A stretch of 64,000 nucleotides of DNA, taken from the IMG/VR virus record IMGVR_UViG_3300046522_000297, positions 50,008 through 114,007 of that record. The stretch is one strand, 5' to 3'. Position numbers and translations under genes: made by a program. Source of the stretch: a virus. Below the pieces are notes generated by a model, which did not search any database, was not told where the DNA came from, and saw only the letters and a list, made by a program, of their open reading frames with translations. Positions within the stretch are counted from its first letter, which is position 1. Every line of letters begins with the position of its first letter. This document shows positions 6,518-12,891 of the stretch, piece after piece.

Positions 6518-6590
6518 TGTCATGTAACTCAGCGGTAGAGTGCTAGAACCTTTCTAGAAGTCGCCAGTTCGATTCTGGTCACGGCCTCCC
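6518..6590 (+). pseudogene. degenerate tRNA-like element (5-nt anticodon loop, no CCA)
   Basis: Intact D-arm ACTC-AGCGGTA-GAGT and T-arm GCCAG-TTCGATT-CTGGT; anticodon arm CTAGA-ACCTT-TCTAG; mismatched acceptor. Confidence 0.65.
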
Positions 6591-8147: not shown

Positions 8148-8160
8148 CTAAGGAAATACA

Positions 8161-8352
8161 ATGGAAATCCTGCACAAGCTGTTCCCGTTCCTGGGCCAGG
8201 TCAAATCCCCGGCCGATAAAAAGGCCCCGAAGGTCTACCCGTTCTCGTCGACGCGTCAACACACCCGTGCAATCTGTCAAGGTTTGCACAACGTCCGGGT
8301 CAACGTCGCCGGCAAGCACAACACCGTGCTGCAAACGGGGGATGCCAAGTAA
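8161..8352 (+). CDS. hypothetical protein
   Basis: RBS AAGGA; host-like codons. Confidence 0.65.
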   Translation: MEILHKLFPFLGQVKSPADKKAPKVYPFSSTRQHTRAICQGLHNVRVNVAGKHNTVLQTGDAK

Positions 8353-8364
8353 GTAGCGCCGGAC

Positions 8365-8393
8365 TTGCAGTATAGTGACTACGTTGCTATAAT
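8365..8393 (+). promoter_or_regulatory. host sigma-70-type promoter
   Basis: TTGCAG-17nt-TATAAT with extended -10 TG, upstream of the tRNA pair. Confidence 0.7.
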
Positions 8394-8406
8394 GTAAGTC
8401 TTCTGT

Positions 8407-8494
8407 GCGCCGGAAGCCCTATTGGTCGGAGGCCCTCGACTCATAATCGAGCTGCGAAAGCACGTTGCGGGTTCAAAGCCCGCCCGGCGCACCA
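8407..8494 (+). tRNA. tRNA with CAU anticodon (Met/Ile2) and long variable arm
   Basis: GCGCCGG/CCGGCGC, CTCGA-CTCATAA-TCGAG, 15-nt variable region with TGC-GAAA-GCA hairpin, ACCA; A at position 8. Confidence 0.75.
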
Positions 8495-8512
8495 ATAAAT
8501 AGTTGTTAAGAT

Positions 8513-8600
8513 GGACCGGAAGCCCTACTGGTCGGAGGCCCTCGACTAATAATCGAGCTTCGAAATCACATTGCGGGTTCAAAGACCGCCCGGTCCACCA
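8513..8600 (+). tRNA. tRNA with AAU anticodon (Ile), paralog of 8407-8494
   Basis: GGACCGG/CCGGTCC, CTCGA-CTAATAA-TCGAG, 15-nt variable region, ACCA; one T-stem mismatch. Confidence 0.7.
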
Positions 8601-8619
8601 ACTCCGTAATTATAATAAG

Positions 8620-9042
8620 ATGCCTCAAGAAGCACAGTTTCCATTCGAAGGATATAGACTTTACATAGTACTTCACAAAAAAGAAGGCCGACGTATGGCT
8701 AACTTAGTGAAGAAAGACACGGGTAGTCAAGTAAGAACTACCATGTCGTACGCCCGTTATCTCATGTCAGTTCATTTAGGTAGAGTTTTGACCGAAGATG
8801 AGCATGTCGATCATAAAAATGACGATAAGTTGGATGATAGAATCGATAATTATCAGATTTTAACCCCAGCACAAAACCTTGAAAAGTATAATCGGTCACA
8901 CCCTAAAAAAGTCGTAGATGTAAGATGTTTTTGGTGTGGCACTACTTTTCAAATGGACAAAAGAAACGTCCCATTTAGGCCCAATGCTTGTTGCAGTAGA
9001 AAGTGCGCTAGAGCTAAGCAGTTTAACAGAGACAAAAGTTAG
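8620..9042 (+). CDS. HNH endonuclease with C-terminal Cys motifs
   Basis: EHVDHKNDDKLDDRIDNYQILTPAQN; CFWCG...CCSRKC; start placed at ATG after the tRNA. Confidence 0.85.
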   Translation: MPQEAQFPFEGYRLYIVLHKKEGRRMANLVKKDTGSQVRTTMSYARYLMSVHLGRVLTEDEHVDHKNDDKLDDRIDNYQILTPAQNLEKYNRSHPKKVVDVRCFWCGTTFQMDKRNVPFRPNACCSRKCARAKQFNRDKS

Positions 9043-9077
9043 TAGTCCTCTCACACAATCCGTTTTAGGAGTTTCGC

Positions 9078-12814: not shown

Positions 12815-12891
12815 CGGGAAGATAGCTTAGTTGGTAGAGCGCCGTATCTGAGGTACGCATGTCAGAGGTTCAAATCCTCTCTTTCCGACCA
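12815..12891 (+). tRNA. tRNA-Pro-like body with aberrant anticodon loop (possible pseudo/decoy tRNA)
   Basis: CGGGAAG/CTTTCCG + ACCA (C1-G72, A73), canonical D- and T-arms, anticodon arm CGTAT-CTGAG-GTACG. Confidence 0.6.

What the first reader, a model, noticed from the sequence alone, without database searches (positions are those of the whole stretch)
8407..8600. Tandem paralogous tRNAs with CAU and AAU anticodons on a long-variable-arm body
Seen: two 88-nt near-duplicates under their own sigma-70 promoter, with compensatory acceptor-stem changes (GCGCCGG/CCGGCGC vs GGACCGG/CCGGTCC), A instead of U at position 8, 15-nt variable regions, A73 and CCA; the anticodons differ at the wobble base (CAT vs AAT). 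Established: bacterial Met/Ile tRNAs are class I (short V-loop), A34 is rare in bacteria outside Arg(ACG), and LeuRS/SerRS ignore the anticodon and use A73 or V-arm features. Inference: either nuclease-resistant Ile tRNAs covering AUA and AUU/AUC, or mis-acylated tRNAs that recode these codons.
Basis: partly seen in the sequence, partly recalled or inferred. Interest (0 to 1): 0.7.

Follow-up and report, generated by a model that had tools for sequence, protein, structure and literature searches.

The report
Long-armed phage isoleucine-type tRNA gene pair
Two adjacent phage tRNA genes are real: they look like AUA-reading isoleucine tRNAs built with an extra arm that textbooks reserve for Leu/Ser/Tyr tRNAs. 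They travel with a homing-endonuclease gene, and the copy with the rare AAU anticodon looks like a decaying duplicate, not a recoding device.

Summary
Window 8407-8494 (CAU) and 8513-8600 (AAU) are 88-nt, 7/5 cloverleaf tRNAs with a 3-bp D stem, A8/U14, a 15-nt variable region, A73 and encoded CCA.

They are not one-offs. The variable-arm hairpin UGCGAAAGCA recurs in dozens of phage tRNAs for Lys, Asn, Thr, Ile, Met and His, and in the chromosomal tRNA-Thr(UGU) of Eremiobacterota. Discriminator bases follow the anticodon in those checked, so these are cognate decoders, not Ser/Leu mischargers.

A true homologue (80% identical, A8/U14, anticodon CAU, variable stem changed by three compensatory pairs) sits in an unrelated 322-kb phage beside the same HNH endonuclease family.

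In the nearest relatives the same promoter drives two ordinary short-arm CAU tRNAs and there is no HNH gene.

The acceptor pairs (G3-C70 or A3-U70, C4-G69, C5-G68) carry the published tRNA-Ile(CAU) signature.

Polarised on the homologue, copy 1 changed only in compensated or loop positions. Copy 2 gained C34>A, lost G53-C61 and lost two variable-stem pairs.

Best reading: copy 1 is a lysidine-dependent AUA decoder and copy 2 is decaying. What the long arm does is untested.

This scan has noted long-armed class-I phage tRNAs before on other DNA. I found no paper describing them.

The parts
8161..8352 (+). Small conserved ORF (63 aa) upstream of the tRNA promoter
   Evidence: Listed as an ORF. 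Aligns with L001/L002. The surrounding segment 8150-8426 is only 76.7% identical to L001, against 92.5% and 88.9% for the neighbouring segments.
8365..8393 (+). Putative sigma-70 promoter: TTGCAG, 17-nt spacer, TATAAT
   Evidence: Read directly from the sequence. Conserved in L001/L002 in front of their own tRNA pair. Not listed by the consensus scan because the -35 matches 3 of 6.
8407..8494 (+). tRNA copy 1: anticodon CAU, 88 nt, long variable arm (C-UGC-GAAA-GCA-CGUU), A8/U14, A73, CCA. Proposed tRNA-Ile2 type.
   Evidence: ARAGORN. RF00005 41.5 bits. Minimum-free-energy fold is the five-arm cloverleaf. Acceptor signature. Homologue L078:1859-1946.
8513..8600 (+). tRNA copy 2: anticodon AAU, 88 nt, G53.A61 mismatch, variable stem broken. 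Probable decaying duplicate.
   Evidence: ARAGORN. RF00005 28.3 bits, below the gathering score of 29. The only family member with unpaired variable-stem and 53-61 cells. Fold is not a cloverleaf. Changes polarised against L078.
8620..9042 (+). HNH homing endonuclease gene (140 aa)
   Evidence: phrog_14913 E 2.4e-28 and Pfam HNH_3 27.9 bits. Absent at this site in L001/L002. Homologues lie within 400 nt of a tRNA in 22 of 26 viral loci.
8427..9054 (.). Segment with no DNA similarity to the nearest relatives. It replaces their two short-arm CAU tRNAs (L001 9326-9486).
   Evidence: blastn of the window against L001; alignment A1.

Best explanation
The locus is a homing-endonuclease-linked cassette carrying two paralogous phage tRNA genes of the tRNA-Ile2 (CAU) type. 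Both are built on a class-II-shaped body: a 3-bp D stem and a 3-bp GAAA-capped hairpin in the variable region.

Both genes are probably co-transcribed from the conserved promoter and processed like other tRNAs. This step is inferred.

Copy 1 is an intact tRNA. After the host TilS converts C34 to lysidine, IleRS charges it and it reads AUA. AUA makes up 18% of this phage's Ile codons, and it fits the phage's set of tRNAs, most of which read A-ending codons. This step is inferred from the acceptor signature and the genomic context.

Copy 2 began as a second CAU gene. It then acquired C34>A, a broken G53-C61 pair and a broken variable stem. It is a decaying duplicate or, at best, a weak AUU reader.

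The cassette replaced two ordinary short-arm CAU tRNAs still present in close relatives, most likely through homing of the adjacent HNH gene with co-conversion of flanking DNA. That the long arm is selected is shown by compensatory changes. What it does is not shown.
For: The genes are real tRNAs.

Family alignment A2 (28 sequences): the cloverleaf with a 3-bp D stem has 96.9% of cells paired and 20 of 23 pairs changed on both sides; 0 of 500 shuffles reach this.

Homologue L078:1859-1946 lies in a 322-kb viral contig. It is 79.5% identical to copy 2 and 75% to copy 1 over 88 nt without gaps. It shares the anticodon CAU, the acceptor GGACCGG, A8/U14 and the T arm. Its variable stem is GAG/CUC instead of UGC/GCA, which is three compensatory pairs.

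Polarised on L078, copy 1 changed at two compensated acceptor pairs plus two unpaired positions. Copy 2 changed at nucleotide 34, at nucleotide 61 and at two variable-stem pairs.

Acceptor pairs 3:70 G-C or A-U, 4:69 C-G and 5:68 C-G are present. These match the Ile(CAU) discriminators of Silva et al..

The HNH family sits next to tRNA genes in 22 of 26 loci. The nearest tRNA is CAU in 11 loci and UAU in 2. Of nine distinct CAU neighbours, eight have G3 or A3 and none has the Met-type C3-G70.

Close relatives have two short-arm CAU tRNAs under the same promoter and no HNH gene.

AUA is used at 11.2 per 1000 codons.

The long-arm design also serves as a housekeeping tRNA-Thr(UGU) in Eremiobacterota chromosomes.
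Against: - No expression, modification or charging data exist.
- Silva's rule was derived from 234 bacterial genomes in 2006, not from phages. Under it both short-arm CAU tRNAs of the relatives also score as Ile, which would leave those phages with no Met tRNA.
- TilS determinants differ between bacteria and the host is unknown. Whether TilS or IleRS tolerates a long arm and A8 is also unknown.
- The phage record is only 71% complete.
- Copy 2 keeps a perfect acceptor stem, anticodon stem and CCA, so it may still work.
- The direction of the cassette exchange is inferred from three genomes.
Confidence: 0.55

Rival explanations
1. Copy 1 is an elongator tRNA-Met. C34 stays unmodified, MetRS charges it through the CAU anticodon and A73, and it reads AUG. 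The long arm has no bearing on identity.
For: MetRS identity rests mainly on the CAU anticodon (established knowledge). Other long-arm CAU tRNAs (L040, L044, L047 and others) are the only CAU gene ARAGORN called in the stretches fetched from large tRNA arrays. L044 and L047 also hold a separate tRNA-Ile(UAU), so those CAU genes are best read as Met. ARAGORN labels copy 1 as Met.
Against: 3:70 is G-C, not the C-G typical of Met and fMet. 4:69 and 5:68 are both C-G, as is frequent in Ile(CAU) genes. The other long-arm 'Met' tRNAs have quite different acceptor stems and are only about 60-65% identical. The linked HNH family sits beside Ile-signature CAU genes and UAU genes.
Confidence: 0.22
2. 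Both copies work and share the labour: copy 1 (lysidine) reads AUA and copy 2 (A34 or I34) reads AUU/AUC, giving the phage host-independent or nuclease-proof Ile decoding.
For: Copy 2 keeps intact acceptor and anticodon stems, the Ile acceptor signature, A37/A38, A73 and CCA. A34 anticodons are not rare in other phage tRNA arrays: ACU, AAG, ACA and ACC were seen.
Against: Copy 2 alone in the family has lost G53-C61 and two of three variable-stem pairs. It scores below the Rfam threshold and does not fold as a cloverleaf. The phage already has a normal tRNA-Ile(GAU). No other AAU member turned up in the viral or metagenome scans, although those patterns required the intact hairpin that copy 2 lacks. 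There is no TadA-like enzyme; the only deaminase is of the dCMP type.
Confidence: 0.15
3. The long arm and the other body changes are mainly a DNA-level adaptation. They make the phage's own tRNA gene immune to the neighbouring HNH endonuclease, whose target lies in the short-arm allele.
For: Both long-arm substitutions in this phage abut an HNH gene that the relative lacks: the CAU pair here, and the Asn-type gene at L053:295-382. Of about 11 distinct HNH-linked AUA-decoder genes, 4 have long arms: the window, L069, L075 and L078. Homing endonucleases that cut inside phage tRNA regions are known, for example SegB (PMC13096335).
Against: Most HNH-linked CAU tRNAs are ordinary short-arm genes. 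Long-arm tRNAs occur without any HNH nearby, as in Ruegeria phage V10, and in bacterial chromosomes. The hairpin is kept by compensatory changes at the RNA level.
Confidence: 0.1
4. The tRNAs are charged by body, not by anticodon (LeuRS through A73 and the class-II shape, or SerRS through the long arm), and so recode AUG, AUA or AUU.
For: A73, a 3-bp D stem and a D loop of class-II length are present. LeuRS and SerRS ignore the anticodon (established knowledge).
Against: Across the family the discriminators I read off fit the anticodon's amino acid (Asn G73, His C73, Met/Ile A73; Lys A or U). The variable stem has only 3 bp, and A73 is not the G73 typical of Ser. U8-A14 is replaced by A8/U14. 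The nearest homologues are all CAU tRNAs. The same architecture is a housekeeping tRNA-Thr in a bacterial phylum.
Confidence: 0.04

Closest known systems
Bacterial tRNA-Ile2 (anticodon CAU, lysidine made by TilS; E. coli ileX type)
   Same: CAU anticodon in a C32-U33...A37-A38 loop, A73, and acceptor pairs G3/A3-C70/U70, C4-G69 and C5-G68. It would read the rare AUA codon.
   Different: 15-nt variable region with a hairpin instead of 5 nt, a 3-bp D stem, and A8/U14 instead of U8-A14. It is phage-encoded and linked to a homing endonuclease. Lysidine has not been shown.
Class II tRNAs (bacterial Leu, Ser, Tyr)
   Same: A 3-bp D stem and a stem-loop in the variable region. The same GAAA-capped hairpin occurs in a genuine tRNA-Leu (L058) and in tRNA-Tyr of Eremiobacterota.
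   Different: The anticodon and acceptor signature belong to the Ile/Met box. The variable stem has only 3 bp.
allo-tRNAs (Mukai et al. 2017, PMC5389517)
   Same: Long variable arm combined with non-Ser/Leu anticodons; found in bacteria and phages.
   Different: allo-tRNAs are defined by an 8/4 or 9/3 acceptor/T architecture and mostly carry G73 or U73. These tRNAs are 7/5 with A73.
Phage tRNAs that escape tRNA-cutting defences (T5 tRNA-Lys/Thr/Asn against PARIS AriB, PMC12409363; mycobacteriophage tRNAs, PMC10264068)
   Same: The isotypes of the wider long-arm family (Lys, Thr UGU, Asn, His, plus Ile and Met) overlap the AriB target list. Both are phage-encoded substitutes for host tRNAs.
   Different: The known escapes use point changes in the anticodon stem-loop. 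Here the difference is a whole extra arm, and no nuclease test exists.
Free-standing homing endonucleases in phage tRNA clusters (T4/T6 SegB, PMC13096335)
   Same: An endonuclease gene beside tRNA genes, present or absent between relatives, with the flanking tRNA genes exchanged or duplicated.
   Different: SegB is a GIY-YIG enzyme; this one is an HNH_3 enzyme (phrog_14913). Its cleavage site is unknown.

Membership tests
tRNA (Rfam RF00005) | Covariance-model score at or above the gathering score of 29 bits | tested here: met
   Copy 1 scores 41.5 bits. Copy 2 scores 28.3 bits, just below the threshold.
Class II (long-arm) tRNA architecture | Variable region longer than 10 nt forming a stem-loop, with a 3-bp D stem | tested here: met
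   Copy 1 and L078 fold with a 3-bp, GAAA-capped hairpin. The stem differs by three compensatory pairs between them. The 3-bp D stem covaries in A2. The hairpin is lost in copy 2.
tRNA-Ile2 (CAU, lysidine) | CAU anticodon with an Ile-type acceptor stem (G3/A3-C70/U70; C4-G69 and C5-G68 frequent) | tested here: met
   against the rule stated in PMC1635315. Copy 2 has the acceptor signature but its anticodon is AAU.
tRNA-Ile2 (CAU, lysidine) | C34 converted to lysidine by TilS, then charged by IleRS | not testable with these tools
   No tilS in the phage record or in the complete relative. The host enzyme would be needed and the host is unknown.
tRNA-Ile2 (CAU, lysidine) | Class I body (4-5-nt variable loop, U8-A14) | tested here: not met
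   15-nt variable region and A8/U14.
Elongator tRNA-Met | C3-G70 usual; G3, A3, C70 or U70 excluded | tested here: not met
   G3-C70 in copy 1 and A3-U70 in copy 2 (rule).
Initiator tRNA-fMet | C1xA72 mismatch, A11-U24, and R29G30G31/Y39C40Y41 | tested here: not met
   G1-C72, C11-G24 and anticodon stem CUCGA/UCGAG.
allo-tRNA | 8/4 or 9/3 acceptor/T-stem architecture | tested here: not met
   7-bp acceptor stem and 5-bp T stem. An eighth pair would be A.C (definition).
tRNA-Ser identity set | G73 and a long, stable variable stem | tested here: not met
   A73 and a 3-bp stem. The identity rules are from established knowledge and were not assayed.
tRNA-Leu identity set | A73 with U8-A14 and class-II D-loop geometry | tested here: inconclusive
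   A73 and the D-loop length fit. A8/U14 does not. The LeuRS rules are recalled from E. coli work and were not tested.
HNH homing endonuclease | HNH domain; gene present or absent between close relatives at one site; cleavage of the empty allele | tested here: inconclusive
   Domain met. Presence/absence met. Cleavage is not testable here.

The most novel reading that the evidence does not exclude
Phages, and at least one bacterial phylum, have an unrecognised design of class-II-shaped tRNAs for amino acids that textbooks assign to class I: Lys, Asn, Thr, Ile, Met and His. The added hairpin would be a selected device that lets phage tRNAs stay usable by synthetases and the ribosome while escaping host tRNA-cutting defences of the PARIS or PrrC kind. 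HNH homing cassettes would spread such armoured tRNA genes between unrelated phages, replacing ordinary alleles as seen here.
Probability: 0.2. Interest if true: 0.8.

Novelty: new variant of a known kind. Interest (0 to 1): 0.55.

Why it matters
Textbooks hold that in bacteria only Leu, Ser, Tyr and Sec tRNAs carry a long variable arm. This locus gives a clean natural comparison: close relatives carry short-arm CAU tRNAs at the same promoter, while this phage carries long-arm ones plus a homing endonuclease.

That makes two questions directly testable. Does the extra arm alter recognition by TilS, IleRS or MetRS, or by tRNA-targeting defence nucleases? Do homing endonucleases drive the exchange of tRNA alleles between phages?

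It also warns annotators. 'tRNA-Met' and 'tRNA-Ile(AAU)' calls on such genes can be misleading, and a rare anticodon can simply mark a dying duplicate.

Tried and rejected
- **Lys origin.** I first thought the pair derived from long-arm tRNA-Lys (CUU/UUU). Ruegeria phage V10 and L005 share the two acceptor stems and the hairpin. I rejected this once L078 turned up: it is a CAU tRNA, 75-80% identical, against 58-69% for the Lys genes.
- **allo-tRNA membership.** Rejected; the architecture is 7/5.
- **Host mimicry.** A Baltobacteraceae genome has only about 11 long tRNAs among 59 hits. I read off only Thr(UGU) and Tyr; the other long ones were not identified. Not supported.
- **Phage-encoded TilS or TadA.** None found. 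The one deaminase is of the dCMP type.
- **Searches that gave nothing.**
  - blastn of the locus against GenBank phages.
  - An exact 28-mer in IMG/VR.
  - The ATPase protein against metagenome contigs.
  - blastn against E. coli genomes.
  - A subfamily pattern in IMG/VR, which found only the L078 contig.
- **Literature.** Five of the six full-text searches looked for long-arm class-I phage tRNAs and found no description.
- **Selection bias.** The hairpin's near-invariance in alignment A2 comes from my search patterns and is not evidence of conservation. The evidence for selection is the L078 and L013 compensations.

Full report
**What is there**

ARAGORN finds two 88-nt tRNA genes at window 8407-8494 (anticodon CAU) and 8513-8600 (AAU). 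The window is bases 50008-114007 of a 114-kb viral record with 46% G+C. CheckV puts the record at 71% complete. It carries 21 ARAGORN tRNAs.

Rfam's tRNA model gives 41.5 bits for copy 1 and 28.3 bits for copy 2, against a gathering score of 29.

Both are 7/5 cloverleaves with these features:
- a 3-bp D stem (GCC/GGC);
- A8 and A9, with U at position 14;
- G18-G19;
- a standard anticodon loop (C32, U33, A37, A38);
- a 15-nt variable region;
- a T loop UUCAAAG;
- A73 and an encoded CCA.

In copy 1 the variable region forms UGC-GAAA-GCA, and the minimum-free-energy fold is a five-arm cloverleaf.

The copies share 78 of 88 bases. A TTGCAG / 17 nt / TATAAT promoter lies at 8365-8393 and is conserved in relatives. 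The consensus scanner does not list it because the -35 hexamer is weak.

**Comparison with the nearest relatives**

Two IMG/VR contigs (L001, L002) encode the downstream AAA ATPase at 95% amino-acid identity. At the same place, behind the same promoter, they carry two ordinary short-arm CAU tRNAs: L001 9306-9382 at 63 bits and L001 9401-9476 at 48.5 bits.

DNA similarity stops about 20 nt into copy 1 (window 8426) and resumes at window 9055.

The unmatched segment holds most of copy 1, all of copy 2 and an ORF at 8620-9042. That ORF is an HNH endonuclease (phrog_14913 E 2.4e-28; Pfam HNH_3) and is absent at this site in the relatives.

The left flank 8150-8426 is also unusually diverged: 76.7% identity against 92.5% and 88.9% for its neighbours. 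A co-conversion tract would look like this.

The same pattern recurs 18 kb upstream in this genome:
- An 88-nt long-arm Asn-type gene (L053:295-382) replaces the relative's 76-nt tRNA-Asn.
- It abuts a second HNH gene (phrog_35854 E 8e-38).

**A wider family**

blastn of copy 1 against GenBank phages hit an annotated 88-nt 'tRNA-Lys' in Ruegeria phage V10. It has the same acceptor 5' strand and the same hairpin.

Pattern scans for the hairpin found long-arm tRNAs as follows:

| Anticodon | Reading |
|---|---|
| CUU, UUU | Lys |
| CAU | Met or Ile |
| UGU | Thr |
| GUU | Asn |
| GAU | Ile |
| GUG | His |

The same hairpin pattern in prokaryote genomes found a long-arm tRNA-Thr(UGU) in five contigs of Eremiobacterota MAGs, beside tRNA-Tyr (and in most cases tRNA-Gly), and in two further MAG contigs. 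Two of the Eremiobacterota contigs are 581 and 685 kb long.

On an alignment of 28 members, the cloverleaf with a 3-bp D stem is paired in 96.9% of cells. 20 of 23 pairs show double changes, beyond all 500 shuffles.

Discriminator bases, read off the printed sequences, fit the anticodon's amino acid: Asn G73, His C73, Met and Ile A73. Lys is mixed (A or U). This argues for cognate charging rather than Ser or Leu charging.

The near-invariance of the hairpin in this set is a product of my search patterns, not evidence of conservation.

These tRNAs are not allo-tRNAs, which are defined by 8/4 or 9/3 stems.

**The true homologue and the HNH link**

A profile of HNH homologues recovered 50 viral loci. 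I scanned the 26 best for tRNAs.
- In 22 of the 26, a same-strand tRNA lies within 400 nt, mostly within 100 nt.
- The nearest tRNA is CAU in 11 loci and UAU in 2.

One of them, L078:1859-1946, lies in a 322-kb contig. It is an 88-nt CAU tRNA, 79.5% identical to copy 2 and 75% to copy 1 without gaps. It shares the acceptor GGACCGG, A8/A9, U14 and the T arm. Its variable stem is GAG/CUC, so all three pairs are changed and all three still pair.

A8/U14 and the hairpin are therefore lineage traits kept by selection. This tRNA type occurs beside the same HNH family in two unrelated phages.

**Identity**

Silva et al. (PMC1635315) report two rules. G3, A3, C70 or U70 exclude Met and fMet and indicate tRNA-Ile(CAU). 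C4-G69 and C5-G68 are frequent in that class.

- Copy 1 has G3-C70, and copy 2 and L078 have A3-U70. All three have C4-G69 and C5-G68.
- Of nine distinct HNH-linked CAU tRNAs, eight have G3 or A3 and none has C3-G70. The two UAU neighbours are AUA readers as well.
- AUA is 18% of Ile codons in this phage, or 11.2 per 1000 codons.
- Nearly half of the phage's tRNAs (9 of 21) have U34 and read A-ending codons.

I therefore read copy 1 as an AUA decoder that depends on host TilS. No tilS is encoded by this record or by the complete relative.

This rests on a rule drawn from bacteria, and both short-arm tRNAs of the relatives also fit it. Met identity remains a serious rival.

**The AAU copy**

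I used L078 as outgroup to polarise the ten differences between the copies.

Copy 1 changed at six positions:
- two acceptor pairs, both fully compensated (four positions);
- one D-loop base;
- one unpaired base in the variable region.

Copy 2 changed at four positions:
- C34 to A;
- C61 to A, which breaks the universal G53-C61 pair;
- two bases that each break a variable-stem pair kept in both copy 1 and L078.

Copy 2 is the only family member with these unpaired cells. It falls below the Rfam threshold and its best fold is not a cloverleaf.

No other AAU member was found, but those patterns required the intact hairpin that copy 2 itself lacks, so this absence is weak evidence. The phage also has a normal tRNA-Ile(GAU).

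The only phage deaminase is of the dCMP type, not TadA.

The rare anticodon is thus best explained as a mutation in a redundant, decaying duplicate. Weak AUU reading is not excluded.

**What the arm does**

This is not shown. Three ideas remain open.
- **Nuclease evasion.** The family's isotypes overlap the targets of PARIS AriB: Lys UUU, Thr UGU, Asn GUU and, as a minor target, His (PMC12409363). That fits an evasion role, but these tRNAs keep the UAAUC site and no assay exists.
- **Immunity of the gene to the neighbouring HNH enzyme.** This is possible. However, most HNH-linked CAU genes are short-armed, and long arms occur without any HNH nearby.
- **A neutral but tolerated variant.** This cannot be excluded.

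**Literature and earlier notes**

Five of my six full-text searches looked for a description of long-arm class-I tRNAs in phages and found none. Earlier notes from this scan report the same general phenomenon on other DNA. I treated them as leads only.

Noticed in passing
L053:295-382 (genome 40694-40781, outside the window), with the ORF at L053:391-957 (-): An 88-nt long-arm tRNA with an Asn anticodon (GUU) and G73 but no encoded CCA. Its acceptor stem is extended by 7 further perfect pairs. It replaces the relative's ordinary 76-nt tRNA-Asn and abuts a second HNH endonuclease gene (phrog_35854).
   Followed up: partly
window 6518-6587 (+): A tRNA-like gene (RF00005 38.5 bits) that ARAGORN misses. 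It has a 5-nt 'anticodon' loop and two acceptor mismatches, so it probably cannot decode.
   Followed up: partly
L054:4377-4461, L056:277-361, L059:1997-2081 (-), L060:5565-5649 (-), L061:2793-2879: Eremiobacterota MAGs (and one Limnocylindrales MAG, L060) carry an 85-nt tRNA-Thr(UGU) with the same GAAA-capped variable hairpin, next to tRNA-Tyr and usually tRNA-Gly; two contigs are 581 and 685 kb. This looks like a housekeeping class-I tRNA with a long arm in a bacterial phylum.
   Followed up: partly
L062-L087 (viral loci with homologues of the window 8620-9042 protein): This HNH_3 family sits within 400 nt of a same-strand tRNA gene in 22 of 26 loci. The neighbours are mostly CAU genes with the Ile-type acceptor signature, or UAU genes, so it seems to home beside AUA-decoder tRNA genes.
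   Followed up: partly
L006:5834-5920, L032:8513-8599, L047:2115-2203 (-) and similar: Another long-arm CAU lineage has U1-A72, A11-U24 and a GGG/CCC run in the anticodon stem, displaced by one pair. These are initiator-like features and were not examined further.
   Followed up: no
window 12815-12891 (+): A 77-nt short-arm tRNA that ARAGORN calls Leu(GAG). It has mismatches in the anticodon stem and an ambiguous loop register. The syntenic gene in the relatives is an odd 85-nt call, 'Arg(GCG)' with the anticodon at position 31.
   Followed up: no
L009, L011, L045: Other phage tRNA arrays hold several A34 anticodons: ACU, AAG, ACA and ACC (twice). A34 may therefore be less rare in phage tRNA sets than in bacteria.
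   Followed up: no
L001:9401-9479: The relatives' second short-arm CAU tRNA also has A8 and A9, here with A14. A8 is therefore tolerated in this phage group outside the long-arm lineage too.
   Followed up: no
genome 43313-43388 (outside the window): A CUA amber-suppressor tRNA. Only 5 of 102 crude ORFs end in TAG.
   Followed up: no
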